Shown here: positions 2,966 through 25,788 of the stretch, one piece after another | Layout: each line of letters starts with the position of its first letter | Position numbering within the stretch: position 1 is the stretch's first letter | Source: a virus | Lineage: Duplodnaviria > Heunggongvirae > Uroviricota > Caudoviricetes | Virus record (IMG/VR): IMGVR_UViG_3300042890_004094 | Length of the DNA: 64,000 nt | Reading direction: 5' to 3' (one strand) | The notes under the pieces: model-generated | What the model was told of the DNA's origin: nothing | Databases searched by the model: none | What the model saw: only the letters and a program-made list of their open reading frames with translations | Position numbers and translations under genes: made by a program

Positions 2966-2967
2966 AG

Positions 2968-3042: not shown

Positions 3043-3052
3043 ATTATTATTG

Positions 3053-3124: not shown

Positions 3125-3130
3125 AATTTT

Positions 3131-3205: not shown

Positions 3206-3211
3206 TGTTTG

Positions 3212-3284: not shown

Positions 3285-3294
3285 ATTATATTTG

Positions 3295-3367
3295 CACAAG
3301 CCAAGGGAGTCGAACCCTTTCCATCCGAGGTTTTGGAGACCTGGTGCATACCATTATGCTGACCTGT
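3295..3367 (-). tRNA. tRNA-Trp(CCA)-like second copy (one mismatched pair in anticodon stem)
   Basis: Reverse complement ACAGGTC...CAGGT-CTCCAAA-ACCTC...AAGGGTTCGACTCCCTT-GGCTTGT; D-loop AATGGTAT shared with the other Trp gene. Confidence 0.5.
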
Positions 3368-3376
3368 ATATATTTG

Positions 3377-3469
3377 AAGAAAGAAGAGTATCGAAACTCT
3401 TAGGGGATATCTCCACGACTAGCCTACCTCTCGGATTCGAACCGAGACCTCTTCAACCTGACTTTCTTT
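3377..3469 (-). tRNA. Aberrant 93-nt tRNA-like element (candidate Ser-CGA type II tRNA with unusually long variable region, or a tRNA remnant)
   Basis: Perfect 7-bp acceptor AAGAAAG/CTTTCTT; internal CTCGG-TTCGAAT-CCGAG stem-loop and a second T-arm-like AAGAG-TTTCGATA-CTCTT; does not fold canonically. Confidence 0.35.
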
Positions 3470-3471
3470 TG

Positions 3472-3544
3472 TGATCCCGGTGGGGCTCGAACCCACAACC
3501 TTCTGATTAAAAGTCAGAAGCTCCACCAATTGAGCTACGAAATC
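3472..3544 (-). tRNA. tRNA-Lys(TTT) second copy
   Basis: Reverse complement GATTTCG-TAGCTCAATTGGTGGAGC...TCTGA-CTTTTAA-TCAGA...GTGGGTTCGAGCCCCAC-CGGGATC. Confidence 0.65.
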
Positions 3545-3549
3545 ATTAG

Positions 3550-3622
3550 TTCCCCCGCCGGGAGTCGAACCCGGCCCCATAGGTTAAAAGCCTATTGCCT
3601 ACTACCAGTTTGCTACGAGGGA
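3550..3622 (-). tRNA. tRNA-Lys(TTT) third copy
   Basis: Reverse complement TCCCTCG...ATAGG-CTTTTAA-CCTAT...GGCCGGGTTCGACTCCCGGC-GGGGGA. Confidence 0.6.
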
Positions 3623-3631: not shown

Positions 3632-3670
3632 AAAAAAACCCGAACTTTTTTATAAGTTCGGGTTTACGTT
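3632..3670. terminator. Strong hairpin with flanking A/T runs (bidirectional factor-independent terminator candidate upstream of the tRNA array)
   Basis: aaaaaaacccgaacttttttataagttcgggtttacgttt. Confidence 0.6.
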
Positions 3671-3694
3671 TATGCTTTATTCTCTTTTATGACA

Positions 3695-3805
3695 TTATCC
3701 TATAATAACATCTTCTTTTGAGAACGACATACTCATACATCCGAACTTGTGGCTAAACCACTTGAACGACTTACTAAAGCTTGTATGTTTGAAATTTGTT
3801 CTCAT
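3695..3805 (-). CDS. Micro-ORF (36 aa, MRTNFKHTSFSKSFKWFSHKFGCMSMSFSKEDVIIG), a related copy of 2554..2631; may be a small RNA
   Basis: ATG fused to TTTTAATATATATAACA on the minus strand, followed by the 3632-3670 terminator. Confidence 0.25.
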   Translation of the reverse strand: MRTNFKHTSFSKSFKWFSHKFGCMSMSFSKEDVIIG

Positions 3806-3807
3806 TG

Positions 3808-3826
3808 TTATATATATTAAAAGTTT
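3808..3826 (-). promoter_or_regulatory. Conserved promoter-like motif (minus-strand AAACTTTTAATATATATAA)
   Basis: Same motif family as 2637-2653. Confidence 0.45.
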
Positions 3827-3895
3827 ATTCTCTCTTTTTGTTTTTTTGTTATTTTTATAGTACAAAAGTAATAAAAGTTTACTTATCTACCTAAT

Positions 3896-7798: not shown

Positions 7799-8002
7799 AT
7801 GCCGGCTCAATCGAAACAGCAACTAAAGTATATTTATGCAATGCGTAATAAATATAAAAACAAGAAAAGTGCTCCTAAACATATGAAGTGGGTATTTAAC
7901 AAAGATTGGACCCAAGACGTTAAAGCCAGTGGGTTACCAACCAAAGTTAAAAGTTTTCAAACTTATGTAAGTGAAAACTATGATGCTTCGACTAAGAAGT
8001 AA
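7799..8002 (+). CDS. Hypothetical small basic protein (67 aa)
   Basis: Lys-rich ORF; 3' end overlaps the convergent tyrS by 25 nt. Confidence 0.4.
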   Translation: MPAQSKQQLKYIYAMRNKYKNKKSAPKHMKWVFNKDWTQDVKASGLPTKVKSFQTYVSENYDASTKK

Positions 8003-9234
8003 CTTTTCTTACCTCTTTGTAGTATGATAAACTTATCATTTATCAAATCAACATCTGTTACGATGTAATCCTCTTCTCTTTTTATTTTATTTATTGCAAC
8101 TGAATTTTCTTTTAAAGCTCTTCTAGCTTCATTATTTGATTTTAAGAAACCTGTTTTAAATAGAATGTCTGTCATTGTAATGCCTACAAGAATTTCTTCC
8201 ATAGGAACTTTCGCTTGTGGTATTCCATTAAATACATCTAAGAATAATTCTTCATCAAGTAAGTTTAAATCTCCACCATTAAATAAAATGTTAGAAGCTT
8301 CTAGTGCTTTTTCAAACTCTTGCTGACCGTGAACCATAATAGTTATTTCTCTTGCTAATTTTTTTTGTAACAAAAATAAGTTCTTTGCTTTATTATGTTC
8401 TTCTATTAAATTATCAATAGTTTCTTTATCTAAAAATGTAAAGATTTTAATGTATTTCTCTGCATCATTATCATCGGTATTTATCCAAAATTGGTAAAAC
8501 TTGTACACAGAGGTCTTATCTTTATCTAACCATATATTTGTACCTCCTTCAGATTTTCCGAACTTAGAACCATCCGATTTAGTTAGTAAAGGACATGTCA
8601 TAGCAAATGCTTCCCTACCAGGATTCATTTTGTGAATTAGTTCAGTTCCTGTTGTAATGTTACCCCATTGATCTGAACCACCCATTTGTAATAAGCAGTT
8701 ATGTTCTTTATTTAGATGGTAGAAATCGTATCCTTGAATCAACTGGTACGTAAATTCTGTGAAAGACATTCCTTCACCTTCAATACGATTTTTCACAGAT
8801 TGTTTAGATAACATGTAATTTACAGTAATTCTTTTACCAATGTCTCTTACAAAGTCTATGAAACTAAATTTTGACATCCAATCGTAGTTATTTACTACAG
8901 GAGTATCACCTAAAAATCTTGTTAGTGTATTTCTAATACCTTCGACATTTTTATTAAGTGTTTCTTCGTCTAATAGATTTCTTTCATTTGACTTACCAGA
9001 GGGGTCACCGATCATACCAGTGGCACCTCCAACAAGTGCGATAGGATTGTGTCCAAAATTCTTCATATGTTTTAAAAGAATGATTGGAACTAAACTACCG
9101 ATATGTAGAGAATCTGACGTTGGATCAAAACCGATATAAGAGGTGGTGGCTTCTTTTAAAAGTTGAGCCTCCGTTCCTGGTATTATATCGTGTACCAACC
9201 CACGCCATTTTAATTCTTCTACTATATTTTTCAT
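7978..9234 (-). CDS. tyrS: Tyrosyl-tRNA synthetase, bacterial type
   Basis: GFDPTSDSLHIGSLVP (HIGH-region), GGATGMIGDP, GGSDQWGNIT and KFGKSEGG (KMSKS-like) motifs; C-terminal S4-like region. Confidence 0.9.
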   Translation of the reverse strand: MKNIVEELKWRGLVHDIIPGTEAQLLKEATTSYIGFDPTSDSLHIGSLVPIILLKHMKNFGHNPIALVGGATGMIGDPSGKSNERNLLDEETLNKNVEGIRNTLTRFLGDTPVVNNYDWMSKFSFIDFVRDIGKRITVNYMLSKQSVKNRIEGEGMSFTEFTYQLIQGYDFYHLNKEHNCLLQMGGSDQWGNITTGTELIHKMNPGREAFAMTCPLLTKSDGSKFGKSEGGTNIWLDKDKTSVYKFYQFWINTDDNDAEKYIKIFTFLDKETIDNLIEEHNKAKNLFLLQKKLAREITIMVHGQQEFEKALEASNILFNGGDLNLLDEELFLDVFNGIPQAKVPMEEILVGITMTDILFKTGFLKSNNEARRALKENSVAINKIKREEDYIVTDVDLINDKFIILQRGKKSYFLVEAS

Positions 9235-9638
9235 TATGCCAATACTTCTTTAATAACTTCTGATACAACTTTTCTGTCTACTTGTAAAGTAGCAAACTCT
9301 TTCATAATTCCACCAACATTGGTAATCCCTGATGCAACAAGTGCACTAACTTTTACAACAACATCTTCTCTTGTCATAGCAGCTGGAAGTAAAGCTTCAA
9401 CCATTTCTAATTGAGTTTTAGATTCTTCGTCACCAGAAGTTGCGATAACTTCTTTAAGAGATTTTGCAGTTTTATTAAGAATTTTAATTACCTCTGCATC
9501 AGAAAGACAATCTACTCCTGTATTTTTTTCAATAGTTTGGATCTCTCCTTTCACTACAGAAAGTAAGTTCTTTGCTACGACATTTCTTTCTTTGAAAGCA
9601 GTCATGTAGTCTTTGCTAATTTGTTCTTTTAAATTCAT
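9234..9638 (-). CDS. YqeY/GatB-domain protein
   Basis: 134 aa, MNLKEQISKDYMTAFKERN... resembles the YqeY family; stop overlaps the tyrS start as TAATG. Confidence 0.65.
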   Translation of the reverse strand: MNLKEQISKDYMTAFKERNVVAKNLLSVVKGEIQTIEKNTGVDCLSDAEVIKILNKTAKSLKEVIATSGDEESKTQLEMVEALLPAAMTREDVVVKVSALVASGITNVGGIMKEFATLQVDRKVVSEVIKEVLA

Positions 9639-11910: not shown

Positions 11911-11921
11911 AAACTATATAT
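11908..11921 (-). promoter_or_regulatory. Conserved motif (minus-strand ATATATAGTTTATG) fused to the start codon; contains the TAG stop of smpB
   Basis: Reverse complement of cataaactatatat. Confidence 0.45.
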
Positions 11922-12345
11922 TTCGTTGCATCTCTCTAGTAAGGTCTCTTTCTTTGATAGTTTCACGTTTATCCCAAGTTTTCTTACCTTTGGCAACAGC
12001 TATTTTAATTTTAATTCTATTATTCTTAATAAACATACCAAGTGGAATTGCAGTTATGCCTTTATCTTCCAGTTTTCTTTTGATACGAGTGATTTCTTTT
12101 TTATTTAAAAGAAGTTTCTTATCACGATTTTCTTCGTGTTTATCTAAAGTATGTGCTGATTTATAAGCTGCAACTTTTAGATTTTTAATCCACACTTCAT
12201 TATCTTTTATGTAAATGAACGCATCAACCATGGTAACATTTCCCATTCTAACGGACTTTACTTCACTACCAACCAATATTATTCCGCAGTCAAATTCCTC
12301 TATAAAAGTATATTCGTAACGGGCTCTTCTATTTAATGCTATCAT
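11914..12345 (-). CDS. smpB: SsrA-binding protein SmpB
   Basis: 143 aa; ALNRRARYEY...GSEVKS...IAVAKGKK..DKR..IKERD pattern aligns with bacterial SmpB. Confidence 0.85.
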   Translation of the reverse strand: MIALNRRARYEYTFIEEFDCGIILVGSEVKSVRMGNVTMVDAFIYIKDNEVWIKNLKVAAYKSAHTLDKHEENRDKKLLLNKKEITRIKRKLEDKGITAIPLGMFIKNNRIKIKIAVAKGKKTWDKRETIKERDLTREMQRNI

Positions 12346-12895
12346 ATTTTATAATTTTATCGGAATCTCCTTTCCTGTTCTTAATGACTTGTATTACTTT
12401 ATCATTACTTTGTTGAGTTATAATCATTGCTAAATCTGCATAATATAAAGGTGTTGAACCACCCATAAAAGAATCATTATCTTTATTTAAACCATTGGTG
12501 TTTAATGGACAGGTAAGTATCAACTTAATGTCACATATATCTTTCCCATTTCTACTATCTCTTAGACAAGATCTTACATCATAGATAACATTTTTTATTA
12601 CACTTGCTCTACTTAAATCCTCGTTAGTAAAATTTCTTTGTTCAATATAAGTATTTCTTATATCATTTATATCTAATAGTAAGTATTCAAACTCTTCTTT
12701 CTCATTTAGAACTTGGTCAATTTTCATATCTCTGATAATTGACTTCATAGAAAAAGATGAACTTAAATCTATTGTCTTGGTTCTCCCAAGATTAGAAATA
12801 ATTTCATCTTTAATTCTTTCATCTGAAAATCGATAACCAATTAAGGTTGTCTCATTTTTACTAATTAGATTATATAAATAATCTATATTTTCCAT
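12329..12895 (-). CDS. Hypothetical protein (188 aa)
   Basis: ORF; overlaps smpB start by 17 nt. Confidence 0.5.
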   Translation of the reverse strand: MENIDYLYNLISKNETTLIGYRFSDERIKDEIISNLGRTKTIDLSSSFSMKSIIRDMKIDQVLNEKEEFEYLLLDINDIRNTYIEQRNFTNEDLSRASVIKNVIYDVRSCLRDSRNGKDICDIKLILTCPLNTNGLNKDNDSFMGGSTPLYYADLAMIITQQSNDKVIQVIKNRKGDSDKIIKYDSIK

Positions 12896-13215
12896 TAGTT
12901 TAAGTATTGCCCAACAAGTTCAGACAATTTTTCTTTAGTTGTCATACCAACACTTCTATCTACAATTTCTCCGTCTTTATAAACCAAGATTGTAGGAATG
13001 TTTCTGATTCCCAACTCTACAACCTTATCTCCATTCGGAGTTGCGTCTAATTTACCAACTGCTACTCTTCCTTGAAAATCAATTGAAAATTCATCTAAAA
13101 TAGGAGCAATTTGTTTGCAGGGGCCGCACCAATTTGCCCAAATGTCAACTAAAACAACTCCAGTTTGTGTAAATTCAGTATAATTAGTTTCTGATAATTC
13201 TGTTATAAATCCCAT
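12895..13215 (-). CDS. trxA: Thioredoxin
   Basis: 106 aa with WCGPCK active site. Confidence 0.85.
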   Translation of the reverse strand: MGFITELSETNYTEFTQTGVVLVDIWANWCGPCKQIAPILDEFSIDFQGRVAVGKLDATPNGDKVVELGIRNIPTILVYKDGEIVDRSVGMTTKEKLSELVGQYLN

Positions 13216-13260
13216 AATTTTATATTTAGTTTTTATTTATATTATATTTTATTGAAAAGT

Positions 13261-14520
13261 TTAATCCGTACAATCTACATAACATGCATCACTATCATCA
13301 TATTCTACCTTAGATAGTATACTTTCGACCATAGAATTATGTCTTTCATCAACTATTTCTTTTCTTACAGAAAGTTCATAAAGAAGTGCAGTTGAATCAT
13401 CAATCTCTTGATTTGGTTCAATCGTATGTTTTTCCAATACTGAAAAAGCAATTGTAGGATCTTCCTTATATCTTTCTAATAGTGATTTAACTATTGAAAC
13501 TTGTTCAGTTAGTTTATAACCTCTTAGATTAAGAATTGTCCTTGGTAAAAACTTTATAGTATTTGATAATAATTTCATATCTTCTACATCAACTCCACCA
13601 TCAACATAATCTTCATTTATGAATAATGGTCTCAGTTGATTCCATATGTTCACTAATTCTGGCTTAGTATAGATATTTCTTACATAAAATAGAAAATCTT
13701 CACCTTTGTGAATACTTAATAAATTATTATCATATGTACCTGACCAAGTTTTCTCACTTTTTGTTTTTAAAGTCCATAGATTTACGTCTTTGTCATATGT
13801 TGTTTTGACGTGTGTCATACAGTCAGTATCTTGTTCTATTGTAAAATAGTCGCTAAGTAATTTATAATTATTGAATAAATTAAAATATCTATCTTGAAAT
13901 CTAACTTTGTAAACATCCTGAAGCTGACGTACTAAAACTCCTTGAATAATCTCTAATTCAAATAAATCCAACTTAACATCTAGTTCTTCAGCTTTCTTTA
14001 CAATTCTAATTGCTGTATGACAAGGTGTTTTCAAATTACTTATTTTTAAGTCTCCAGTTTTTAAGAACTTCTCAAACTCCGGTGTCCAATAAAATTTATC
14101 TTCTTCAATTGAATAACCAACCGCAGTACAGTTTATATCAAATGATTTTATGATAATCTCTGGATTGTGAGTGTTTGACTTGTAACTAACGTAGTTGAAT
14201 ATACCTTCGGTAGTAGATTCACTAATGGAATAATAGTTTTTTGCTCTATCAATAAATCTTAAACCAGAGTAATCATCATACCAAACATTTTCTTCATCTT
14301 CTTTAAATGAAAAAAAGTATTCCTTTTTATCTTCGTTATAACTATCTAGTAGACCATCAAATAAAAAAACATCAATATCATTTATGATTGCTTTTGTACC
14401 TGAAACTTCTTCCCAAATAAGGTTTGAAATAGAACCACCCGCGATAAACCCTTTTTTAGGTAAACCCCAATTTGATTTTATTTTCTCAATCGCATTCTTT
14501 GCCAACTGTTCTACGTTCAT
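13261..14520 (-). CDS. Protein with polymerase-beta-superfamily nucleotidyltransferase motif (function unknown)
   Basis: 419 aa; GFIAGGSISNLIWEEVSGTKAIINDIDVFLF matches the GS-x(n)-DxD nucleotidyltransferase signature. Confidence 0.5.
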   Translation of the reverse strand: MNVEQLAKNAIEKIKSNWGLPKKGFIAGGSISNLIWEEVSGTKAIINDIDVFLFDGLLDSYNEDKKEYFFSFKEDEENVWYDDYSGLRFIDRAKNYYSISESTTEGIFNYVSYKSNTHNPEIIIKSFDINCTAVGYSIEEDKFYWTPEFEKFLKTGDLKISNLKTPCHTAIRIVKKAEELDVKLDLFELEIIQGVLVRQLQDVYKVRFQDRYFNLFNNYKLLSDYFTIEQDTDCMTHVKTTYDKDVNLWTLKTKSEKTWSGTYDNNLLSIHKGEDFLFYVRNIYTKPELVNIWNQLRPLFINEDYVDGGVDVEDMKLLSNTIKFLPRTILNLRGYKLTEQVSIVKSLLERYKEDPTIAFSVLEKHTIEPNQEIDDSTALLYELSVRKEIVDERHNSMVESILSKVEYDDSDACYVDCTD

Positions 14521-14678
14521 TACTTTTCTTTTTTAGTGTTTAAATTTAAAACTTCTGATATGTGATCATTTAATGATCTTCTAACAGAAGAATCAGAAGA
14601 AGTCTGACTTTCATCTTTAACTTCTTCTGATTCTTCTGTTGTTTTTATTTCTTTGTCTTTCATTTCTTTGTATTTCAT
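14520..14678 (-). CDS. Small acidic Ser-rich protein (52 aa) translationally coupled between the sigma factor and the nucleotidyltransferase-like gene; not in the ORF track (below size cutoff)
   Basis: MKYKEMKDKEIKTTEESEEVKDESQTSSDSSVRRSLNDHISEVLNLNTKKEK; TAATG overlaps at both ends. Confidence 0.4.
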   Translation of the reverse strand: MKYKEMKDKEIKTTEESEEVKDESQTSSDSSVRRSLNDHISEVLNLNTKKEK

Positions 14679-15280
14679 TAGTCTAAAAACATTTCATCTA
14701 TCTGTTCAAACTCTTTTTTGGATTGATCCATAAGTATTTGACGTCCATTCCTTATTTGACTTTTAATTGTACTCAAGTTTTTTCCTAATTTATCTGCGAT
14801 GTCTTTGTATTGCATTCTTTCTATCTCTCTCATTATAATAACTGTTTTATACGGCTCTTTTAACTCGTCGATATGTTTCTTCATTACATCAGCTTTCTGT
14901 GTAAAAACATCATAAATGGCCTCATTACTTTCAGTTTCTTGTAAGAAATCTTTTAAGGTAGTACCTTCATCATCAAACTCAATGTCTAACGATATGTTTC
15001 TGTTTTCAAGTTTCTTGTCTTGAAGTGATAAATTTTTTGCAATTGTGAATAACCACGTTGAGAATTGTGATTTTTCTTTTTGATACATTTCTATTTTTTC
15101 CAGAGCTATCATAAATGAGTCTGTCGAAATGTCTTCTGCTTTTTGTACATCATTACAAATTCTTGATGTAAAGTAGATTAGTTTTGGATAATACTTTTGA
15201 TAAAGTGTTGCGAAGTCTTTACCTGTTCTTTCTTTAAAGATTTTCTCTTGTTCAGAGAAGGGAGCTGTGCTTAATTCCAT
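14678..15280 (-). CDS. Sigma-70 family RNA polymerase sigma factor (regions 2 and 4 only, ECF-like size)
   Basis: 200 aa; region 2 ...FSTWLFTIAKNL..., region 4 HTH ...YKDIADKLGKNLSTIKSQIRNGRQIL. Confidence 0.8.
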   Translation of the reverse strand: MELSTAPFSEQEKIFKERTGKDFATLYQKYYPKLIYFTSRICNDVQKAEDISTDSFMIALEKIEMYQKEKSQFSTWLFTIAKNLSLQDKKLENRNISLDIEFDDEGTTLKDFLQETESNEAIYDVFTQKADVMKKHIDELKEPYKTVIIMREIERMQYKDIADKLGKNLSTIKSQIRNGRQILMDQSKKEFEQIDEMFLD

Positions 15281-15324
15281 AGATTGCTTTTGATTTTTCT
15301 TTTTGACATGCCGTCAATTGCTTT

Positions 15325-15350
15325 TGATTGATTGATTTTGATTGATTTTG
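15325..15350. repeat. Short direct repeats TTGATTGATTGATTTTGATTGATTTTG in the sigma-factor upstream region
   Basis: Visible tandem TTGATT(T) units; possible operator. Confidence 0.4.
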
Positions 15351-15388
15351 TTCTTAATTTATTCTAATTGCCGTAATAATATTATATG

Positions 15389-15406
15389 ATATATATATTA
15401 AAAGTT
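15389..15406 (-). promoter_or_regulatory. Conserved promoter-like motif (minus-strand AACTTTTAATATATATAT) about 110 nt upstream of the sigma-factor start
   Basis: Same motif family. Confidence 0.4.
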
Positions 15407-18297: not shown

Positions 18298-21200
18298 ATG
18301 GTTCAAAGTTCATTTCCAAAAGTAGCGGATCAAATAATAACGTATAATAAAAATATTGTTGAGATTTTATCTAAAATCAACTCTCTAACAACAACAACAG
18401 ATTCTTCTGTTACTCTTCAAGTGTATGATGAGAATGGTATATTAAGAAATTTTACATTACCTTCTTTTACATCATTGAAAGCAGATATTGATAGATTAAA
18501 TAATAATATCAATTCACTTTATAGTATTGATGCAGCAGGTGCTCTAATTCAAACCTCAACACAAAATAAATACAAAAAGATTATTACAGTTGATTTGAAT
18601 AGAGATCCTACTCCAATTGGAAGCTTAGGTGCTTTGAGTACTTTTAGATCTTCACCTAATTGGTTTTTTGATTCACTTATGGATCCTATGGTCTCAGTAG
18701 AACTTGATTTATCAGGTAAAATTGAGGATAATGTTAGAAAATGTTTGATAAGAAGATATATTGTTGAATTTGCAAAAAATGCAGATGGTTCTTTTACTAC
18801 ACTAGGTCAATCAGCGTTAAATAGTTATAATCAATTATTTAGAGGTAATCCTAATATTATTATATCAGAATTTGAAAACTGGTATACTACAACTACAGGA
18901 CTATTAAATCCAACTAATCCTAAGTATGATGAACAAATGTTTGATTTGGAGCCTAATAATCTATTATATGATGGTCAATTTAGTGTTTTAAGAATACAAG
19001 AAGATAGATTAAATAGAAAACTTTGGTATGTTTTAGATACATTAGATTACTTAGTAGTTGATGCAAACTCAACTAGAAGATTATCTATTGGAGATGAAGT
19101 TATTATAAATTCAGAAAAAACATCAACAAGATATAAAATATTAGAGGTTTCTACTGCAGAATCTAATCCAAGAATTAGAGTAGAAAGACTTGAAGGTATT
19201 GAACCAATTCCAGTTGGAATTGGAACTTTAAAAGTTTATTCATCTGTTATTTATACTAAGAGGGTTAGAGTAAGTGTTGGTTATAATGAAAGAAATGTTC
19301 TTTTTGTTAAACCAGTAAATGCTGATAATAACTTAGTTGCAAAAAAATGGAGTTTAGGTACGGGTTATTATACAAATGACTTGAGACTTACTTCTGACTC
19401 TAGTGCAAATGGATTATCAATGGAACAATTCTATATTGATTATGTTTATGATTATGGTGTTGTTTTACAAGATTTAGTTGCCAAGAAAACACCAAACTCT
19501 TTGGCAGGTACACCTGGTTCCCCAACATTGGCATTAGATAACTTTAAGGTAGTTCAAATAAATAAACATCTTACTGATACTCCTGATTCTAACTTGGTTA
19601 AACAAAAACATAATTATCAGTTATCTTTAAAATCAGAGATACAACAATTACAAGAAGCTATTATATCAAGAAATAAGGCATCAAAATTTACTAAGTTTAA
19701 ATCAGATTCTGCAAAAAAACAGGCAGACTTAGAAGTTGGAGAACTAACAAATAAGAAAGATAGTAAAAGTAAATTACTTGCATCTGTTACTCAAGAAGTT
19801 ATTGACTTATCTAAAGATCCAAAAAATAAAGTTACTCCTAAATTTAGTGTAAGAGGTTTCTGGCCAATTCCAAGTGCTGTAGTTACTACTGGTACTAAAC
19901 CACAAGAGATTGTACAATTTAGAGTTCAATATAGATATACTAGTAAAGATGGTAGAGAAGCACCGGTAGATACTTTTACAATTACAGATTCTCAAAGTAA
20001 AGCTTCTTTTTCTAACTGGACAGAATTTAAAACTGATGCAAGAAAAAGAGAGTATAATACATCAACTGGTGAATATACTTGGGCAATTGAAGATGTTACT
20101 AATGCAGATACACCAAATATTAATCAAATAGATATTCCAATTCAATCTAATGAAAGAGTTGATATTAGAATAAAATCTATCTCAGAAGTTGGTTGGCCAG
20201 AATCTGCAGTTGAATCTGATTGGTCTGAAATTATTACAATTGATTTCCCGGATGATTTAAACACAATTGCTAATGAAAATGATTTTATTTTAACTGCTGC
20301 AACTAAGGAAGACTTAAAAATAAGTATGAATTCAGAACTATCTGCAAAAGGATTAGATAATCACTTAGCAGACACAGTGACAGTAAATAACGTTACATTC
20401 CATCACGATGCAAAGAAGATTTTATCTGGTTTCCAGGATGAGAATGGAGTTTCATTAGACTTATATACTTATATACAAAATTTGGTAGATAGAATTTCAT
20501 CATTAGAAGAGAAAATTACAAGAGCTAAAGGTGAACTTCAGATTATCATTCTTAGAAATAATCAAGAGTACATAGTAAATAATGGTTCTGAAACAACATT
20601 TAATGTTGAGTGTGAAGATTATTTAACTTTATTCAATGGACAAGGTGCACCAACTGGTAGAGTTTATGAAAACAATATTTATGTTATTAAAGATTTTGTT
20701 ATGAAGATTAAAAATAATGCAAAAGAATCATTATTAGGGTTACTATCTAATAGAACATATTTACAAAGTACTGCAGTATATAATACACAAGCACCTCAAA
20801 GTTTTTGGGTAAATAGTCAAGATGAGCTATTGACAAATGATGTTATTGAAACAGGTCAAACAAGAACTCACTTAGATAACCAATTTATTTGGCAAATGAA
20901 CTATGATTCTATTACACAAAATACTGTGGCAAAATTATCTGAAAATATAGGTAATACATTTGATAATGCTACTGTAAATTCAAACTCTATAACAAATGTA
21001 CTTTCAACCAGTGATTATAATGTTGGTTATAATGAGCCAGCTATATTAAAATTTATTGGTAATAATAAATCTTTATTAGATCCATCAAAATGGAATGATG
21101 TGACTGTTTCAATTGCATCAACAACTAAGTTCTTAACGACTATACATCCAGTAGTTAAAAGTTTAGAAAACATACAAGAAAACAATAGTGATAAGGTTAA

Positions 21201-21504
21201 GACTATAAATGTTGGTGATAAAAGTTCTATTATAGTTCCACTAAATATTTATTTCAAACTTAATTCATTAGATAATAGTCAAACAGGATTAAATTATCAA
21301 TATATTGATCTTAATAATTCAACAAGAACTGTAAAACATGTTAAGAAAATTAAATTTTTCCTAGAAAATGAGTCAGAGAATAGACCATTTATATTTACAT
21401 TAAAATTTAACTTAAATAGAAATAAAGTTATTGTAAGAAAGTTCAACTCAACCGGTGGTAGTCCAGCATATATAGATGATTGGTCAACATCAAGTAAAAA
21501 ATAA
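18298..21504 (+). CDS. Large hypothetical protein (1068 aa), probably structural
   Basis: Long ORF with Asn/Ser/Thr-rich composition; first gene of a plus-strand block of large proteins. Confidence 0.7.
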   Translation: MVQSSFPKVADQIITYNKNIVEILSKINSLTTTTDSSVTLQVYDENGILRNFTLPSFTSLKADIDRLNNNINSLYSIDAAGALIQTSTQNKYKKIITVDLNRDPTPIGSLGALSTFRSSPNWFFDSLMDPMVSVELDLSGKIEDNVRKCLIRRYIVEFAKNADGSFTTLGQSALNSYNQLFRGNPNIIISEFENWYTTTTGLLNPTNPKYDEQMFDLEPNNLLYDGQFSVLRIQEDRLNRKLWYVLDTLDYLVVDANSTRRLSIGDEVIINSEKTSTRYKILEVSTAESNPRIRVERLEGIEPIPVGIGTLKVYSSVIYTKRVRVSVGYNERNVLFVKPVNADNNLVAKKWSLGTGYYTNDLRLTSDSSANGLSMEQFYIDYVYDYGVVLQDLVAKKTPNSLAGTPGSPTLALDNFKVVQINKHLTDTPDSNLVKQKHNYQLSLKSEIQQLQEAIISRNKASKFTKFKSDSAKKQADLEVGELTNKKDSKSKLLASVTQEVIDLSKDPKNKVTPKFSVRGFWPIPSAVVTTGTKPQEIVQFRVQYRYTSKDGREAPVDTFTITDSQSKASFSNWTEFKTDARKREYNTSTGEYTWAIEDVTNADTPNINQIDIPIQSNERVDIRIKSISEVGWPESAVESDWSEIITIDFPDDLNTIANENDFILTAATKEDLKISMNSELSAKGLDNHLADTVTVNNVTFHHDAKKILSGFQDENGVSLDLYTYIQNLVDRISSLEEKITRAKGELQIIILRNNQEYIVNNGSETTFNVECEDYLTLFNGQGAPTGRVYENNIYVIKDFVMKIKNNAKESLLGLLSNRTYLQSTAVYNTQAPQSFWVNSQDELLTNDVIETGQTRTHLDNQFIWQMNYDSITQNTVAKLSENIGNTFDNATVNSNSITNVLSTSDYNVGYNEPAILKFIGNNKSLLDPSKWNDVTVSIASTTKFLTTIHPVVKSLENIQENNSDKVKTINVGDKSSIIVPLNIYFKLNSLDNSQTGLNYQYIDLNNSTRTVKHVKKIKFFLENESENRPFIFTLKFNLNRNKVIVRKFNSTGGSPAYIDDWSTSSKK

Positions 21505-21513
21505 TAGTTTAAA

Positions 21514-24500
21514 TTGAAAAGTTTTGGTTTATTAAGAACAAATGTTGGATTGACAACAAATATTAAGGTTACGATTGATACTAACTATAAATTTAGTTTA
21601 GATAGTATTGAATCTGATCCTAACTTATCTTTTGACAAATTTAAAAAAGTTAGTTTCACTAAAGATAATTACTATGATGAGTTGATTCCATACTTTTACA
21701 AAGATTTACCTGCAGATACCGCATTCTCAATTAAATATGACAATGATGTTGATACAATGTCAAATGATTTCAGAAATCAATATGATGAATTATATAGTTA
21801 CGGTGCACGTAATATAGTTAATAATAAAAACTATAGTGAAGAGTATGAGTATTTTGCACCTTTATACATCACTAAAAATCATTTACCTAAAAAATTTATT
21901 ATTTTTAGAGTTGATGGTTCTGGTATTGGAACAACAGATAGAAGTAATTTTAATGCAGAAATAATTAAGAAACTAAAGACAGTTAAACTATTTGATTTAA
22001 GTAAACAAAGTGTATTAGGTGATTGGTTAGGAAAGAATTTTACAGATAATAAATACTTCCCAGATTCTCCATTGGATATAGATTTTAGAAATTTAGAATT
22101 TTGTAGATGGAATGGTATAGATTATCAGAATGGTGGATATACATATAAATCTTTATTTATTGATGATATATTAGATGAGGAAAAAGAAATATTTGAACTT
22201 GAAAAGTTTATATTTGACTCTTATAAAAATAATAAAGTTGTTTTTCCAAATATAATAAACTTCTCATTTTTATTTGATGATACTCCATCTACTCCAGAAA
22301 TTAAAAAAAAGTGGTCTATAAATAGATATTATGGATTTTATTTAAACGATTTAGAATTGGTTAAAACTGTTTCACCATATTTATCAATACCTTTAAGAAG
22401 TGATATTATTATTCAGAATAATGCTGTAATTGGTGGTGATACAAATTCGGTATCAAATATAATTTACTCACCAAGTAATGAAAATCCATTTCTTCAAGAG
22501 TGGTCAAACAAAAGACCATTTTATGTAGAGTATGATGGAAACTACTATAAAGTAGAAAAATTTACTGAGACTGTTTCAAATCAATTGGTTAAAATTCCTA
22601 ATACATTTACTACTATGGAAAGTAGAATGTCTAAAGACTTAGGATTTAGTTCATCAAAATTTAATAAAAATGCAAGTGTTATTAAAAAATCAGTTACTAC
22701 AAATACTAAATCAGCAGTAGAGGATTTTGGTGATGTTATTGTTACTAAATATAAAATAATAACTAACCTAAATTTGACCGGTTTAACTGCGTCAAGTTTT
22801 AATCAGAACTATGCAGAAATAGATCCTACTAATAAACTAATTACTAGGGATGGTAGTACAATAAAAGATTTTCAGATAGCAGGATTTGACAGTGCAGATG
22901 TTTGGATAATTGAAATTGATGGTATATATCACAATTTAGTTAATATAGATAATTATATAATGCTTAGCACAGACTACTCTTTTATTTTTAACCAAAATGA
23001 TTTCATATATAAAGTTCGTGGAGAATCAAAAAAAGTTAGTACAGTAGTTGATTTTAATAATGCACCTAAAAAGTTTTCAATTTATAAACTTAATTTTTGT
23101 GATATAAAAGATTTTGATACAAGAATTGTTGATACTGATTATTCTAAATATGAATATGAAGAGTCTACAAATATTACTACTACAGATGAGACAAAAATGT
23201 ATTTAGAAGATATAAGAAGTTTAACAGATCCTATAAATTTAGATGATTTTAGCTATCAAAATAGAATAGTTAATATACCAACCTCTTCTGAATATACTGC
23301 TAACTATGAAACATTCAAAATAGATGGTAATGATCTATCTGAGATATGGAGAAAAAATCCTGTTTATTGTAAATGGGGATTTCATAAATCACTTTCAGCA
23401 AATGATTTACCATACACTTTAAATAACTCTTTAATCTTTGAGGATTTTAATAGAACTACTAATGTTTATGAACCGTATCCTAAAAGATCTGAAAGAAATT
23501 TAGATTATTTCTATACAATAAACTCTGCATCGTCATCATATGTTTATCATAGTTTACATATAGAAAATTTAGATAATAATAACAATATAGATACTGAATT
23601 TAAGTTTGAGTTAAATAAGTATTTAAACTTTACCTATTCATATTTTGATAGTATAACATCAACAACACAATCAACATCACCATATCCATATGATTATTTC
23701 ACATATTTATTTGGTAAGTCCAATACTTTCTTTAATGGTAAGATTAAAGAAAACTCTAATAAGTATTCTTATTTTAATGTTGGTGATGAGTCTGTACCAA
23801 ATCATACTTTATTTAGAGGTATAAAATTTGATATTTATGAGGTTAGTAGTATTACAATAAATACAAATAATCAAATTGATAAAATCAATATAAAGTCATC
23901 TAACACATTTGATGATTATAAGTTTTCAGTTTTATTATCAGAAAACAATACTTCACCAATATTTGATACTTTAGATAGTAGTAAAATAACAGGACTTGTA
24001 TATTCACCTAATACTCTTATGTGGTCTGTTATAGATGAGTGGAAAATGAATAAAAGATATGTCGGTGGTACAAGTTGGGCAGGTGCATCAAAAGTTTTAC
24101 ATGATGATATTTTATATGGCAAGTATGGTAATTCAAGTACTACTAATAATCCAATATTTGCAACATATGGTGTTACAATACCTTCTGCACCATATACACA
24201 GGGTTGGACTTTTTTTGTTAGTAATAATGATTCAGTTTTTTGGTCACCTAACTATAATGGTTATACATCATTAGTGGGACCAACTGCAGCAGCCACTGGT
24301 GAGGTTTTACCATTTGGTTATAAATTACAAGAGCCTAATAAACCATCAATTGTATATAATTCTGGTGAATATTACTTTTGTTCATCACAATCTAATGCTA
24401 TTGACTTTTGGAATCCACTAAAATCTATTTCAACTGGTTATATGTCACAGGATACCGTTATTTATAAGAATAATTACTATACATCACTAAAGGATAATAA

Positions 24501-25788
24501 TTACTTTAAACCAACAATGAATACTTGGACTGCATCCACTGGAGTTACATCAGCAAAATGGAAAATAATAGAATCCTGGAATGCAACAAAACAATATTAT
24601 TGGAATGATAATGTTGTTTATAATGAAAGTGTATATAAACTTTATACATCCAATTCAGATAATATTTCTTTATCTGATGGTATTCCTCCAGTTGGTACTG
24701 AACCAGTTAAGTCAAAAGGTTTCTGGTTTAGAAATAATGGAAAGTCATTTAATTCAATAAGTGTAACAAGTTCAATAGTAAAATTTAATAATAAATATAA
24801 TATCTTAGTAGGTGGTGGAAAAACAACAACTAGTAGTCTTAATAATGGCATTATTATTTATATAAATAAAAAGTGGAAAAATATACTAGTAAATATAAAT
24901 ATAAGTGATGGTACAACACCAGATATATCTAACTCAAATAGAGATAGTTTATATAATGATATAAATCAAAAACTAACCGCTGCTAATTTTATAAATGCGA
25001 TCAATGATATTAGTAATAAATATGGTTTTAGTAACTATCTATCATATGTTGTTGTTGATGAAAATAATAATATAAAAAAATATAGTTATTCAGATGTTGA
25101 TGGTGGTAATATTAAAGATCTACCATATTTATTAAGATGTGAAGAACCTGATAAATTAGATATTAAAGTAAATTCATTATTTAAAAGAGCAGTCGAACTT
25201 CCAAATACACTAAATCCAATTAGAAAGTTGGACTCTGGAAGAATAGTAGATATAACTCAACTAAACTACTTCAATAATATTCCAGTTGCTGCGAACATTA
25301 TCGAAAATCAATTTCCACCTAAAGTATTTGAGAATTATCACGGTAATACTAATATTATAAAAAATGAAATTTATAGATATAGTGGATATTATAGTCCGGT
25401 ATTCTATGATGTACAACTATTTGAAAGAGATTCTAATGGAATACCTTCAGGTGGTAATTATAAATTTGATACTTTATTAAATGATTTTGGTATAATGAAA
25501 GAAAGAAAAATTAGAAAAGTAAATAGAAAAGGAAACATACTAAGATTAGGTAATGTAAATGATGAAAAATCAATATATCCTATGTTAGATGAATTTGGAT
25601 ATTCTATCTATGACTTTTTTATATTCTCATCAACCTGGGATTTAAAGTATTATTTAGAAACAGTTTCTGTTAGTAAAAATAAAGATTATTTACAAAGATA
25701 TACTATTGATGAAAATGTAATAAATGCAGTTGATATAGTAACCCCAATTGTAATACCATCTAATATAGGAAAAACACAGGATAATTAA
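21514..25788 (+). CDS. Large hypothetical protein (1424 aa); start codon uncertain (track start is TTG; first ATG is 81 codons in)
   Basis: Very long ORF beginning 10 nt after the TAA-TAG double stop of the upstream gene. Confidence 0.65.
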   Translation: MKSFGLLRTNVGLTTNIKVTIDTNYKFSLDSIESDPNLSFDKFKKVSFTKDNYYDELIPYFYKDLPADTAFSIKYDNDVDTMSNDFRNQYDELYSYGARNIVNNKNYSEEYEYFAPLYITKNHLPKKFIIFRVDGSGIGTTDRSNFNAEIIKKLKTVKLFDLSKQSVLGDWLGKNFTDNKYFPDSPLDIDFRNLEFCRWNGIDYQNGGYTYKSLFIDDILDEEKEIFELEKFIFDSYKNNKVVFPNIINFSFLFDDTPSTPEIKKKWSINRYYGFYLNDLELVKTVSPYLSIPLRSDIIIQNNAVIGGDTNSVSNIIYSPSNENPFLQEWSNKRPFYVEYDGNYYKVEKFTETVSNQLVKIPNTFTTMESRMSKDLGFSSSKFNKNASVIKKSVTTNTKSAVEDFGDVIVTKYKIITNLNLTGLTASSFNQNYAEIDPTNKLITRDGSTIKDFQIAGFDSADVWIIEIDGIYHNLVNIDNYIMLSTDYSFIFNQNDFIYKVRGESKKVSTVVDFNNAPKKFSIYKLNFCDIKDFDTRIVDTDYSKYEYEESTNITTTDETKMYLEDIRSLTDPINLDDFSYQNRIVNIPTSSEYTANYETFKIDGNDLSEIWRKNPVYCKWGFHKSLSANDLPYTLNNSLIFEDFNRTTNVYEPYPKRSERNLDYFYTINSASSSYVYHSLHIENLDNNNNIDTEFKFELNKYLNFTYSYFDSITSTTQSTSPYPYDYFTYLFGKSNTFFNGKIKENSNKYSYFNVGDESVPNHTLFRGIKFDIYEVSSITINTNNQIDKINIKSSNTFDDYKFSVLLSENNTSPIFDTLDSSKITGLVYSPNTLMWSVIDEWKMNKRYVGGTSWAGASKVLHDDILYGKYGNSSTTNNPIFATYGVTIPSAPYTQGWTFFVSNNDSVFWSPNYNGYTSLVGPTAAATGEVLPFGYKLQEPNKPSIVYNSGEYYFCSSQSNAIDFWNPLKSISTGYMSQDTVIYKNNYYTSLKDNNYFKPTMNTWTASTGVTSAKWKIIESWNATKQYYWNDNVVYNESVYKLYTSNSDNISLSDGIPPVGTEPVKSKGFWFRNNGKSFNSISVTSSIVKFNNKYNILVGGGKTTTSSLNNGIIIYINKKWKNILVNINISDGTTPDISNSNRDSLYNDINQKLTAANFINAINDISNKYGFSNYLSYVVVDENNNIKKYSYSDVDGGNIKDLPYLLRCEEPDKLDIKVNSLFKRAVELPNTLNPIRKLDSGRIVDITQLNYFNNIPVAANIIENQFPPKVFENYHGNTNIIKNEIYRYSGYYSPVFYDVQLFERDSNGIPSGGNYKFDTLLNDFGIMKERKIRKVNRKGNILRLGNVNDEKSIYPMLDEFGYSIYDFFIFSSTWDLKYYLETVSVSKNKDYLQRYTIDENVINAVDIVTPIVIPSNIGKTQDN

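What the first reader, a model, noticed from the sequence alone, without database searches (positions are those of the whole stretch)
14520..15280. Sigma-70 family factor translationally coupled to a 52-aa acidic protein and a nucleotidyltransferase-motif protein
The sigma factor stop overlaps the ATG of an unannotated 52-aa acidic/Ser-rich ORF (TAATG). That ORF's stop in turn overlaps the ATG of the 419-aa GS...NDID protein. Small acidic proteins directly downstream of sigma factors are classic anti-sigma or sigma-modulating partners, so a three-gene regulatory cassette is plausible. The upstream region carries TTGATT tandem repeats and a copy of the conserved promoter motif.
Basis: inference. 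Interest (0 to 1): 0.55.

Follow-up and report, generated by a model that had tools for sequence, protein, structure and literature searches.

The report
Huge-phage sigma and Gad2-like operon
A giant-phage operon packs together a phage-specific sigma factor, a tiny fast-evolving dispensable protein and a nucleotidyltransferase distantly related to the anti-defence protein Gad2, but comparison with about 100 related loci does not support the proposed sigma/anti-sigma regulatory cassette.

Summary
On the minus strand, an ECF-type sigma gene (14678-15280), a 52-aa ORF (14520-14678) and a 419-aa nucleotidyltransferase-motif gene (13261-14520) are chained by two TAATG stop/start overlaps. A TTGATT-type tandem repeat and a promoter-like motif lie upstream.

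The interpretation mostly fails. Across about 100 related loci from "Mahaphage"-like huge phages, the sigma is always present and strongly constrained (pN/pS 0.07-0.19). The small ORF occurs only where the sigma is at least 78% identical. It is weakly constrained (0.47-0.67), has three unrelated N-termini (acidic, transmembrane, Asn-rich) on one conserved C-terminal amphipathic helix, and has been deleted at least twice. Other lineages have nothing, a ClpP-like gene or another small ORF at that position, and about 15% lack the 419-aa gene. No anti-sigma domain was found, and a natural sigma-small-ORF fusion gave no docking signal.

The upstream motif AACTTT-N14/15-TATAA is real: 79 of 84 loci have it.

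Verdict: an ordinary, tightly packed phage operon with a variable insertion slot. These are new members of known kinds.

The parts
15382..15406 (-). Promoter-like element AACTTTTAATATATATATCATATAA (AACTTT-N14-TATAA with an ATATATA block in the spacer), about 100 nt upstream of the sigma ATG
   Evidence: The loose form is present upstream of the sigma in 79 of 84 unique related loci, and the strict form in 74. Background in random 263-nt windows is 5.5%. It always lies 44-107 nt before the ATG. The strict form has 5 copies in the window against 1.1 expected. It is not a sigma-70 TTGACA/TATAAT match.
15281..15381 (-). Long 5' leader of the sigma gene. It holds ACGGCAAT (15367-15374), a tandem repeat (15317-15350; AATCAA / CAATCAAAA units on the coding strand), the palindrome TTGAC-N5-GTCAA (15303-15317), and AAAGCAAT copies (15317-15324 and 15283-15290, the latter 2 nt from the ATG)
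   Evidence: Tandem Repeats Finder. The motif family A(A/C)(A/G)GCAAT is repeated 2-3 times in this leader in all lineages, with the last copy abutting the ATG, and repeat copy number varies between relatives. ACGGCAAT occurs only twice in the whole 64 kb. No Rfam family matches.
14678..15280 (-). Phage-specific ECF-type (group 4) sigma-70 family factor, 200 aa
   Evidence: Pfam r2 plus r4_2. TIGR02937 is above its cut-off, and the best subfamily is Sig70_bacteroi1, below its cut-off. PHROG 1740. There are 1582 homologues, on contigs up to 640 kb. Mean column identity across lineages is 74%. pN/pS is 0.07-0.19. It is essentially absent from cellular genomes.
14520..14678 (-). Small ORF, 52 aa (47 aa if started at Met6, 14661-14663). 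It has a charged Ser/Thr-rich N-part and a conserved C-terminal amphipathic helix plus Lys-rich tail (RRSLNDHISEVLNLNTKKEK)
   Evidence: It matches no family apart from one weak hit attributed to composition. There are 15 protein clusters of 43-69 aa, and their indels preserve the frame. The C-terminal module is shared by acidic, TM and Asn-rich N-terminal types, with N and H each encoded by both of their codons; pN/pS is 0.42-0.66 at pS 0.58-0.82. Whole-ORF pN/pS is 0.47-0.67. It is deleted in L024 and L006.
13261..14520 (-). Gad2-family (PF26128) nucleotidyltransferase, 419 aa. The head and neck resemble class-II CCA-adding enzymes and poly(A) polymerase, and the helical C-terminal half matches nothing
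13237..13261 (-). Second copy of the promoter-like element (AACTTTTCAATAAAATATAATATAA), 21 nt upstream of the thioredoxin ATG and overlapping the stop of the 419-aa gene
   Evidence: A loose-form copy lies within 120 nt upstream of thioredoxin in 43 of 58 unique loci.
12895..13215 (-). Thioredoxin, 106 aa, a conserved downstream operon member
   Evidence: Pfam PF00085, 2.2e-24. It is syntenic in nearly all loci.
12329..12895 (-). 188-aa protein of unknown function whose start overlaps the thioredoxin stop
   Evidence: No family hit. It is syntenic in most loci at 28-83% identity.
11914..12345 (-). SmpB (tmRNA-binding protein), 143 aa, overlapping the end of the 188-aa gene
   Evidence: Pfam PF01668, 2.3e-51. 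It holds the same position in L001, L002 and L170.

Best explanation
The region is one tightly packed transcription unit of a Mahaphage-like huge phage. The host is predicted to be Bacteroidota, by relationship to LR745206 and LR756502.

The gene order is: conserved promoter-like element and a long repeat-bearing leader, then a phage-specific ECF-type sigma factor, then a variable insertion slot, then a Gad2-family nucleotidyltransferase, then thioredoxin, then a 188-aa protein, then SmpB.

- The sigma is the conserved core gene. By analogy with other phage-encoded sigma factors (inferred), it redirects host RNA polymerase core to phage promoters. The AACTTT-N14/15-TATAA class may be its target; its AAC -35-like element is the hallmark of ECF promoters.
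- The 52-aa ORF is a real but lineage-restricted, weakly constrained and dispensable accessory gene that occupies the slot between the sigma and the nucleotidyltransferase. Only its C-terminal amphipathic helix of about 18 aa is conserved. Its N-terminus has been swapped between acidic, transmembrane and Asn-rich versions.
- The 419-aa protein is a template-independent nucleotidyltransferase whose catalytic head and neck resemble a CCA-adding enzyme. It is distantly homologous to the anti-Gabija protein Gad2. It most likely modifies an RNA 3' end or a nucleotide as part of host take-over or counter-defence (inferred; substrate unknown).

The three genes are co-expressed and translationally chained. 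They do not form a sigma/anti-sigma/effector regulatory cassette.
For: Shown:
- Anatomy and overlaps.
- ECF assignment.
- Relationship to the 634-kb and 642-kb huge phages, which belong to the Mahaphage clade with predicted Bacteroidetes hosts (PMC7162821).
- Classification of about 100 sigma loci. The small ORF is present only where the sigma is at least 78% identical. L024 and L006 carry independent deletions. About 30 loci have a ClpP-like gene in the slot (Pfam 2e-26). About 18 loci have direct sigma-NTase abutment. About 14 loci have no NTase gene. L170 has an extra 53-aa ORF.
- Selection: sigma 0.07-0.19, NTase 0.17-0.54, small ORF 0.47-0.67. The C-terminal module is kept through synonymous changes, and it is kept in L170 even though there it does not abut the NTase start.
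- NTase identity. Gad2 function: 10.1101/2023.05.01.538930.
- Promoter element.
- No terminator on the coding strand between the sigma and the thioredoxin gene; the only coding-strand terminator-like hit is a weak one (5 pairs) inside the 188-aa gene.
- The sigma family is absent from cellular genomes.
Against: - There are no expression or binding data. A short helix could still contact the sigma or the NTase.
- One natural stop-loss fusion of the sigma to the TM-type small ORF exists (P0204).
- The small ORF is found only where the NTase gene is also present, which would be compatible with a functional link. However, this is confounded by phylogeny.
- The link to Gad2 rests on a profile comparison covering only the N-terminal 194 columns, plus a precomputed Pfam tag. 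Direct BLASTP (E 0.014), the shallow-profile hhalign (4.8%), phmmer and hmmsearch all fail.
- Which holoenzyme reads the AACTTT-TATAA promoters is unknown.
Confidence: 0.6

Rival explanations
1. The small protein is a minimal anti-sigma or sigma-modulating factor for the upstream ECF sigma. Its C-terminal helix would bind sigma domain 2 or 4, and the TM-type variants would tether the sigma to the membrane in the way classic ECF anti-sigmas do.
For: - Its position immediately downstream of an ECF sigma, with stop/start overlap or abutment.
- The TM-type variants (KD hydropathy 2.1-2.4) have more Lys after the helix than before it. By the positive-inside rule, which is general knowledge and not a test run here, this predicts a cytoplasmic C-terminus.
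- One natural sigma-small-ORF fusion exists (P0204).
- The C-terminal helix is amphipathic (muH 0.45-0.72).
Against: - No anti-sigma domain was found in Pfam, NCBIfam or PHROGs.
- At 43-86 aa it has only about 18 conserved residues.
- It is absent from about 80% of loci that carry a 63-77% identical sigma, and it was deleted twice within its own clade.
- Its constraint is weak compared with the strong constraint on the sigma.
- The AF2 model of the fusion gives the small-ORF part pLDDT 38-45, with pTM 0.34.
- The order TM-then-cytoplasmic-tail is the reverse of classical ECF anti-sigmas.
Confidence: 0.1
2. The small protein is a partner of the downstream Gad2-family nucleotidyltransferase, for example a neutraliser, chaperone or specificity factor for an enzyme that can be toxic. 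It would not be a partner of the sigma.
For: - The small ORF occurs only in loci that also have the NTase gene.
- Its stop overlaps the NTase ATG in most of those loci.
- Gad2 of SPbetaL7 was toxic when expressed alone.
- NTase toxins with small antitoxins are a known theme (general knowledge).
Against: - Most NTase-bearing loci lack the small ORF.
- In L170 another ORF separates the two genes.
- Deletion variants keep the NTase gene intact.
- The small ORF upstream of gad2 in SPbetaL7 is unrelated.
- There are no PADLOC or toxin-antitoxin family hits.
- The fold search does not place the enzyme with MenT or AbiEii toxins.
Confidence: 0.12
3. The small ORF is kept open mainly so that ribosomes can relay from the sigma to the NTase gene through translational coupling. 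On this reading the peptide itself has little or no function.
For: - Every junction in the chain overlaps or abuts, including those in L170.
- The N-terminal sequence and length vary freely.
- Clean deletions leave the NTase start within 18-45 nt of the sigma stop, while keeping the last 20-30 nt before the NTase ATG.
- pN/pS is high.
Against: - The C-terminal module is conserved at the amino-acid level through synonymous changes, with pN/pS 0.42-0.66 at near-saturated pS.
- That module is conserved in L170, where it is not adjacent to the NTase start.
- pN/pS is below 1 throughout.
Confidence: 0.12
4. The 419-aa enzyme is a tRNA 3'-end (CCA-adding or repair) nucleotidyltransferase that serves the phage's own tRNA set, and is not a counter-defence protein.
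For: - The best structural matches are class-II CCA-adding and A-adding enzymes.
- None of the 13 tRNA genes found by ARAGORN in the window's array (2131-3622) encodes CCA.
- The neighbourhood is rich in translation genes: SmpB, TyrRS, YqeY and an S1-domain protein.
- Huge phages are reported to encode CCA-adding enzymes (PMC7162821).
Against: - No member hits the PolyA_pol family PF01743.
- Only the head and neck align, about 175 residues. The C-terminal half matches no tRNA-binding body or tail domain.
- The neck motif reads TPxHTAIR. From memory, the templating motif of CCA enzymes is EDxxR.
- The family is tagged and profile-linked to Gad2.
- The gene is missing in about 15% of related loci.
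Confidence: 0.2
5. The 52-aa ORF is a chance open frame in an intergenic spacer.
For: It is short, has a low-complexity composition, and has no family hit.
Against: - The chance probability is about 0.01.
- It is open in at least 12 distinct relatives, with only in-frame indels.
- pN/pS is below 1.
- It was called as a gene by several pipelines.
Confidence: 0.02

Closest known systems
ECF (group 4) sigma-70 family factors, and phage-encoded sigma factors that redirect host RNA polymerase (for example phiEco32 gp36 and SPO1 gp28/gp34, cited from memory; the general point for jumbo phages is in PMC7824862)
   Same: - Two-domain sigma2 plus sigma4 architecture of about 200 aa, scoring above the ECF superfamily cut-off.
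- A conserved upstream element with an AAC-containing -35-like box at ECF-like spacing to an AT-rich -10-like box.
- It is encoded by a phage in which no RNA polymerase gene was detected among the window proteins scanned. This is a limited sample.
   Different: - No close cellular relative: at most 33% identity to cellular ECF sigmas.
- The sigma2-sigma4 linker is unusually conserved (DxEFDDEGTTxKDF).
- There is no conserved cognate anti-sigma gene.
- Some relatives carry a 69-aa insertion inside the sigma4 helix-turn-helix.
- The promoter specificity has not been determined.
Gad2 (Gabija anti-defence 2), Pfam PF26128; validated in Bacillus phage SPbetaL7 and a Brevibacillus prophage (10.1101/2023.05.01.538930)
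   Same: - A phage protein of about 400 aa with a predicted nucleotidyltransferase domain.
- A shared flavour of motif A (IAGGxIxxL...INDxDxx), a shared FDxxxC/T motif and a shared neck helix.
- hhalign probability 87.6% over 194 columns.
- Close homologues carry the PF26128 tag.
   Different: - No BLAST-level or HMMER-level similarity.
- The C-terminal halves do not align.
- The host phylum and the genomic context differ: here it is a conserved operon next to a sigma, thioredoxin and SmpB, not the SPbeta anti-Gabija locus.
- Anti-Gabija activity has not been tested for this branch, and the mechanism of Gad2 itself is still unknown (PMC12904381).
Class-II tRNA nucleotidyltransferases and poly(A) polymerase (CCA-adding and A-adding enzymes, E. 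coli PAP I), and the PF06042 head-domain protein 2LA3
   Same: - The hGGS...DxD catalytic motif.
- The overall length is similar.
   Different: - No PF01743 match.
- The C-terminal helical half has no counterpart in the body and tail domains.
- The templating motif does not appear to be conserved (a reading from memory).
Anti-sigma factors: class I-III anti-sigma domains of ECF systems, and T4 AsiA
   Same: It is a small protein encoded directly downstream of a sigma gene, and some variants are single-pass membrane proteins.
   Different: - No anti-sigma domain or AsiA similarity.
- Far shorter than known anti-sigma domains.
- Not co-conserved with the sigma.
- The TM-to-tail order is reversed.
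- Dispensable in nature.

Membership tests
ECF (group 4) sigma-70 factor | Only sigma regions 2 and 4 are present, with no regions 1.1 or 3 | tested here: met
   Pfam Sigma70_r2 (aa 26-87) and Sigma70_r4_2 (aa 137-181) in a 200-aa protein. The AF2 model of a homologue shows two helical domains joined by a low-confidence linker.
ECF (group 4) sigma-70 factor | Scores above the curated ECF model threshold | tested here: met
   TIGR02937 scores 67.7 bits against a cut-off of 42.9. No equivalog or subfamily cut-off is reached.
ECF (group 4) sigma-70 factor | A co-transcribed cognate anti-sigma factor (typical of the family but not universal) | tested here: not met
   No conserved downstream partner was found across about 100 loci, and no anti-sigma domain.
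ECF (group 4) sigma-70 factor | An autoregulated promoter with an AAC -35 element | tested here: inconclusive
   AACTTT-N14/15-TATAA is conserved upstream of the sigma in 79 of 84 loci. Which sigma recognises it cannot be determined from sequence.
Anti-sigma factor (small ORF) | A recognisable anti-sigma domain (ZAS, RskA, NepR, CnrY or AsiA type) | tested here: not met
   No hits in Pfam or NCBIfam. The single PHROG hit is a weak match to an Rz-like spanin (E 0.008), attributed to composition.
Anti-sigma factor (small ORF) | Co-conservation with its sigma | tested here: not met
   It is present only where the sigma is at least 78% identical, and it is deleted in L024 and L006.
Anti-sigma factor (small ORF) | Physical binding to sigma domains 2 or 4 | tested here: inconclusive
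   Only a proxy was possible, an AF2 model of the natural fusion P0204. The tail has pLDDT 38-45 and pTM is 0.34. True multimer prediction and experiments were not available.
Gad2 (PF26128) | Match to the family model | tested here: met
   The precomputed PF26128 tag is on nearly all of the 120 closest homologues (85-93% identical to the window protein) and on the L170 orthologue. The local Pfam copy lacks this model, so the window protein itself could not be scored.
Gad2 (PF26128) | Demonstrable homology to experimentally validated Gad2 (SPbetaL7 WIT28108.1) | tested here: met
   A deep profile of 119 sequences against Gad2 gives probability 87.6%, E 3.5e-6, over 194 columns, N-terminal half only. 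Weaker methods fail.
Gad2 (PF26128) | A conserved nucleotidyltransferase catalytic motif | tested here: met
   G28, G29, D48, D50 and D128 are invariant in 28 homologues.
Gad2 (PF26128) | Inhibition of Gabija defence | not testable with these tools
   This needs an infection assay. It has been shown for only two distant members.
Class-II CCA-adding enzyme / poly(A) polymerase | The head and neck fold of the pol-beta-type NTase | tested here: met
   [not shown]
Class-II CCA-adding enzyme / poly(A) polymerase | Sequence membership (PF01743 PolyA_pol) and body and tail domains that bind tRNA | tested here: not met
   No PF01743 hit in any of 28 members. Residues from about 230 to 419 have no structural match.

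The most novel reading that the evidence does not exclude
The conserved C-terminal helix (R-x-[LIV]-N-[DEQ]-H-x-x-x-[VI]-x-N plus a Lys-rich tail) is a new minimal regulatory module. It would dock onto either the phage ECF sigma or the Gad2-like nucleotidyltransferase. Its interchangeable N-termini (soluble acidic, membrane anchor, Asn-rich) would set where or when that partner is active. An example would be membrane sequestration of the sigma or the enzyme early in infection. This would be a previously undescribed class of very small phage modulators attached to a megaphage takeover operon.
Probability: 0.12. Interest if true: 0.55.

Novelty: new member of a known kind. Interest (0 to 1): 0.3.

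Why it matters
- It removes a tempting but unsupported annotation: small ORF downstream of a sigma taken to mean anti-sigma.
- It shows that the junction between the sigma and the next gene is a variable insertion slot in a very large, environmentally widespread group of huge phages.
- It places a conserved megaphage gene in the Gad2 family. It also shows that this family's catalytic core is built like a CCA-adding enzyme or poly(A) polymerase. That is a concrete lead for the still-unknown mechanism of Gad2, pointing to nucleotide transfer onto an RNA 3' end or a nucleotide.
- It defines a conserved promoter-type motif (AACTTT-N14/15-TATAA) and a peculiar repeat-bearing leader for the phage sigma gene. 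Both could be tested directly with recombinant sigma and Bacteroidota core polymerase.

Tried and rejected
1. Small ORF as a partial duplication of the sigma gene. MAFFT placed it on the sigma linker and region 4.1. Local-alignment shuffles give p = 0.25-0.6 for the window's type, so this was rejected.
2. Weak PHROG hit of the small ORF to an Rz-like spanin (E 0.008). It is attributed to charged low-complexity composition. The window version has no TM segment or lipobox and the context is not a lysis cassette, so this was rejected.
3. Phage-encoded RNA polymerase next door. The 1068-aa and 1424-aa ORFs at 18298-25788 have no Pfam hit, so this is not supported.
4. Known RNA element in the sigma leader. 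Rfam finds only tRNAs in the window.
5. Sigma-70-type promoters. There are 30 against 24.8 expected, so no enrichment, and none coincides with the conserved element.
6. Defence or toxin-antitoxin assignment. There are no PADLOC hits for six operon proteins.
7. Relatedness of the small ORF to the ORF upstream of gad2 in SPbetaL7. None was found.
8. Direct similarity to Gad2 by BLASTP, shallow hhalign, phmmer and hmmsearch. All were negative or marginal. Only the deep profile worked.
9. AFDB fold search. The library was unavailable.
10. Public names for the proteins. Apart from the sigma, which JGI/IMG names an ECF-subfamily sigma-70 factor, the only name given is "hypothetical protein".
11. Literature search for PF26128 by accession. 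Nothing was found.
12. AF2 of the natural fusion as a pseudo-complex. There was no docking signal, but the test is weak.
Full report
**1. What is there**

All the features lie on the minus strand. A 200-aa ORF runs from 14678 to 15280. A 52-aa ORF runs from 14520 to 14678. A 419-aa ORF runs from 13261 to 14520. They are chained by two TAATG overlaps, at 14676-14680 and at 14518-22.

Further downstream come thioredoxin (12895-13215), a 188-aa protein (12329-12895) and SmpB (11914-12345). No terminator-like site lies on the coding strand between the sigma and the thioredoxin gene. The only coding-strand hit in the scanned stretch is a weak one, with 5 pairs, inside the 188-aa gene. The window is about 28% G+C.

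An open 51-codon frame at this composition has p about 0.01, and conservation in relatives settles that the ORF is real (see section 4).

**2. Where it comes from**

The only DNA relatives among 50,697 phage records are LR745206.1 (634,780 bp) and LR756502.1 (642,428 bp), at about 70% identity. These sizes match the 634-kb and 642-kb "Mahaphage" genomes with predicted Bacteroidetes hosts described by Al-Shayeb et al. (PMC7162821).

The window also carries other translation-related features:
- a tRNA array: 13 genes at 2131-3622 by ARAGORN, plus one further Rfam tRNA match at 2039-2122
- TyrRS
- YqeY
- an S1-domain protein

**3. The sigma**

The protein has Pfam regions 2 and 4_2 only. It passes the NCBIfam ECF superfamily cut-off. 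Its best subfamily model is the Bacteroidetes one, but it scores below that cut-off.

The family is large, with 1582 hits on contigs up to 640 kb, and it is strongly conserved:
- 74% mean column identity across lineages, including an unusually conserved sigma2-sigma4 linker
- pN/pS of 0.07-0.19

A scan of one genome per GTDB species found a single 59% hit. That hit is on a 25% G+C MAG contig that also carries the phage-type ligase, so the contig is probably a mis-binned phage sequence. Every other hit was at most 33% identical. The sigma therefore does not cluster with host ECF sigmas.

**4. The small ORF**

It has no hit in Pfam, NCBIfam or PADLOC, and only one weak PHROG hit attributed to composition. 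The protein database holds 15 clusters of 43-69 aa. All of their indels preserve the frame, and the stretch LNDHISEVL is nearly invariant in them: 13 of the 15 have it exactly, and the other two differ only at the leading L (FNDHISEVL). The commonest form is 47 aa. The window's 52-aa form, and its TAATG overlap with the sigma, arise from a 15-nt tandem duplication of the ORF's 5' end.

I classified about 100 sigma loci from viral and metagenome contigs. The small ORF occurs only where the sigma is at least 78% identical to the window's. It comes in three N-terminal versions:
- acidic and Ser/Thr-rich, in the window's lineage
- a transmembrane-grade helix (KD 2.1-2.4), in the L005, L007, L028 and L031 types
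- Asn-rich, in L032 and L033

All three share one C-terminal module, R-x-[LIV]-N-[DEQ]-H-x-x-x-[VI]-x-N, followed by a Lys-rich tail. The module is amphipathic (muH 0.45-0.72).

Evidence that the peptide is under selection:
- The invariant N and H are each encoded by both of their codons.
- Between the three types, the module has pS 0.58-0.82 but pN/pS 0.42-0.66.
- In L170 the module is retained even though another 53-aa ORF separates it from the next gene.

Evidence that the selection is weak:
- Whole-ORF pN/pS is 0.47-0.67.
- The ORF has been destroyed by internal deletion in L024 (sigma 97% identical) and in L006 (82%).

**5. What sits at that position elsewhere**

- About 18 loci: nothing. 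The sigma stop and the start of the 419-aa gene are -1 to 49 nt apart.
- About 30 loci: a ClpP-like gene (PF00574, 2e-26).
- About 14 loci: the 419-aa gene is missing and thioredoxin follows the sigma directly.
- L017 and L018: unrelated genes.

The junction is therefore a variable insertion slot, and the triad is not a conserved unit.

**6. Tests of the anti-sigma idea**

- No anti-sigma domain is present.
- The ORF is not co-conserved with the sigma.
- An apparent similarity to the sigma's own linker and region 4.1 is not significant.
- One natural in-frame fusion of the sigma with the TM-type small ORF exists (P0204). Its AF2 model gives the small-ORF part pLDDT 38-45 and pTM 0.34. The module is predicted helical but is not confidently placed.

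This is a weak test. It gives no support for binding, and it does not exclude it.

**7. The 419-aa protein**

At sequence level only motif A matches a known family. PF06042 is hit at E 2.7e-5, and 26 of 28 family members hit it.

An AF2 model built from a 28-sequence alignment is good, with pLDDT 80.8 and pTM 0.74. The structural comparisons agree:
- Foldseek against the PDB returns class-II CCA-adding and A-adding enzymes and poly(A) polymerase, with probability up to 1.0.
- BFVD returns viral proteins annotated as tRNA nucleotidyltransferase/poly(A) polymerase.

The C-terminal helical half matches nothing.

Nearly all close homologues carry a precomputed Pfam tag, PF26128, and that family is named Gad2. 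Gad2 is an anti-Gabija protein of about 400 aa with a predicted nucleotidyltransferase domain. It is necessary in phage SPbetaL7, and a Brevibacillus prophage homologue is sufficient (10.1101/2023.05.01.538930). Its mechanism was still described as unknown in 2026 (PMC12904381).

I retrieved SPbetaL7 Gad2 (OQ921347.1, WIT28108.1) and tested the link directly:
- BLASTP aligns only motif A, at E 0.014.
- The shallow profile gives 4.8% probability.
- phmmer and hmmsearch find nothing.
- A deep profile of 119 divergent relatives gives hhalign probability 87.6%, E 3.5e-6, over 194 columns. The alignment covers motif A, the FDxxxC/T motif and the neck helix.

The protein is therefore a distant Gad2-family member through its N-terminal catalytic half.

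Whether it counters Gabija, repairs or matures tRNA 3' ends, or does something else cannot be decided here. None of the 13 tRNA genes found by ARAGORN in the window encodes CCA.

**8. Upstream region**

The TTGATT-type repeat is real (15317-15350). Its copy number varies between relatives.

The "conserved promoter motif" is also real:
- The loose form of AACTTT-N14/15-TATAA lies 44-107 nt upstream of the sigma ATG in 79 of 84 unique loci, and the strict form in 74. Background is 5.5%.
- It also lies upstream of thioredoxin in 43 of 58 loci.
- The strict form has 5 copies in the window against 1.1 expected.
- Gene-proximal copies in the window lie before thioredoxin, the ligase, the S1-domain gene, a 90-aa gene and the tRNA-array leader.

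Only the sigma copy has an ATATATA block in its spacer and a long leader. That leader carries 2-3 copies of A(A/C)(A/G)GCAAT, the last one abutting the ATG, and a TTGAC-N5-GTCAA palindrome.

The AAC box and its spacing resemble ECF-type promoters. This is a comparison with general knowledge. The sigma may therefore read this promoter class and autoregulate, but that is inference.

**9. Verdict**

- The most likely reading is an ordinary, tightly packed operon of a huge phage. A conserved phage ECF-type sigma and a Gad2-family nucleotidyltransferase flank a variable slot. In this lineage the slot holds a small, weakly constrained, dispensable accessory gene.
- These are new members of known kinds, of modest interest.

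Noticed in passing
Relatives of window 14678-15280: P0176, P0177, P0224; L170:2598-3407: Some sigma orthologues (91% identical outside the insertion) carry an in-frame insertion of about 69 aa exactly in the turn of the sigma4 helix-turn-helix, between YKDIAxKMG and LSTIKSQIRNGR. It has no intein hallmarks and no significant Pfam or PDB match. It occurs in three protein clusters, on contigs up to 23 kb.
   Followed up: partly
P0204 (263 aa, 1134-bp contig): A natural in-frame fusion of the sigma to the TM-type small ORF, in which the stop is replaced by Gln. It could be a real membrane-tethered sigma, a stop-loss variant or a sequencing error.
   Followed up: partly
window 15281-15381 (-), and the equivalent leaders in L001-L019: The sigma 5' leader carries 2-3 direct copies of A(A/C)(A/G)GCAAT in every lineage, the last one abutting the ATG, together with small hairpins or palindromes. 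ACGGCAAT occurs only twice in the 64-kb window, so this looks like a sigma-specific cis-regulatory element acting on translation or as an operator.
   Followed up: partly
window 2039-3622 (-): An array of 13-14 tRNA genes: Ser x3, Arg, Trp x2, His x2, Lys x3 and Phe x2, plus one found by Rfam only. None of the 13 ARAGORN genes encodes its 3' CCA.
   Followed up: partly
window 3640-3879 (-): Two copies of the promoter-like motif (3809-3825 and 3853-3879) are followed by about 150 nt and a strong hairpin-plus-T-run terminator (AAACCCGAACTT...AAGTTCGGGTTTTTTT, about 3632-3664), just upstream of the tRNA array. This may be a small RNA or a short leader ORF.
   Followed up: no
window 50809-52094 (+): Two adjacent ORFs (231 and 190 aa) appear to be tandem paralogues. 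Windows of 300 nt offset by 542 nt are 84% identical, with an exact 31-nt repeat at 51118-51148 and 51660-51690.
   Followed up: partly
window 18298-25788 (+): Two very large adjacent ORFs (1068 and 1424 aa), transcribed divergently from the sigma operon, have no Pfam hit at E of 0.001 or better.
   Followed up: partly
L009:6626-7192, and about 30 other loci: A 188-aa ClpP-like protease gene occupies the same slot between the sigma and the nucleotidyltransferase in a large sister clade (sigma 66-77.5% identical). L002 has an additional 117-aa ORF there.
   Followed up: partly
L102 (JALOAD010000029.1, MAG 'Candidatus Muiribacterium halophilum'): A 43-kb contig with 25% G+C carries the phage-type ligase (51%) and sigma (59%) in the same order as the window. 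It is probably a huge-phage contig binned into a bacterial MAG. Its sigma upstream region does not show an obvious AACTTT-TATAA element.
   Followed up: partly
window 11914-12345, 7978-9638, 26938-28026: Several translation-related genes lie around the operon: SmpB, TyrRS, a YqeY-like protein and an S1-domain protein. This matches what has been reported for huge phages.
   Followed up: partly
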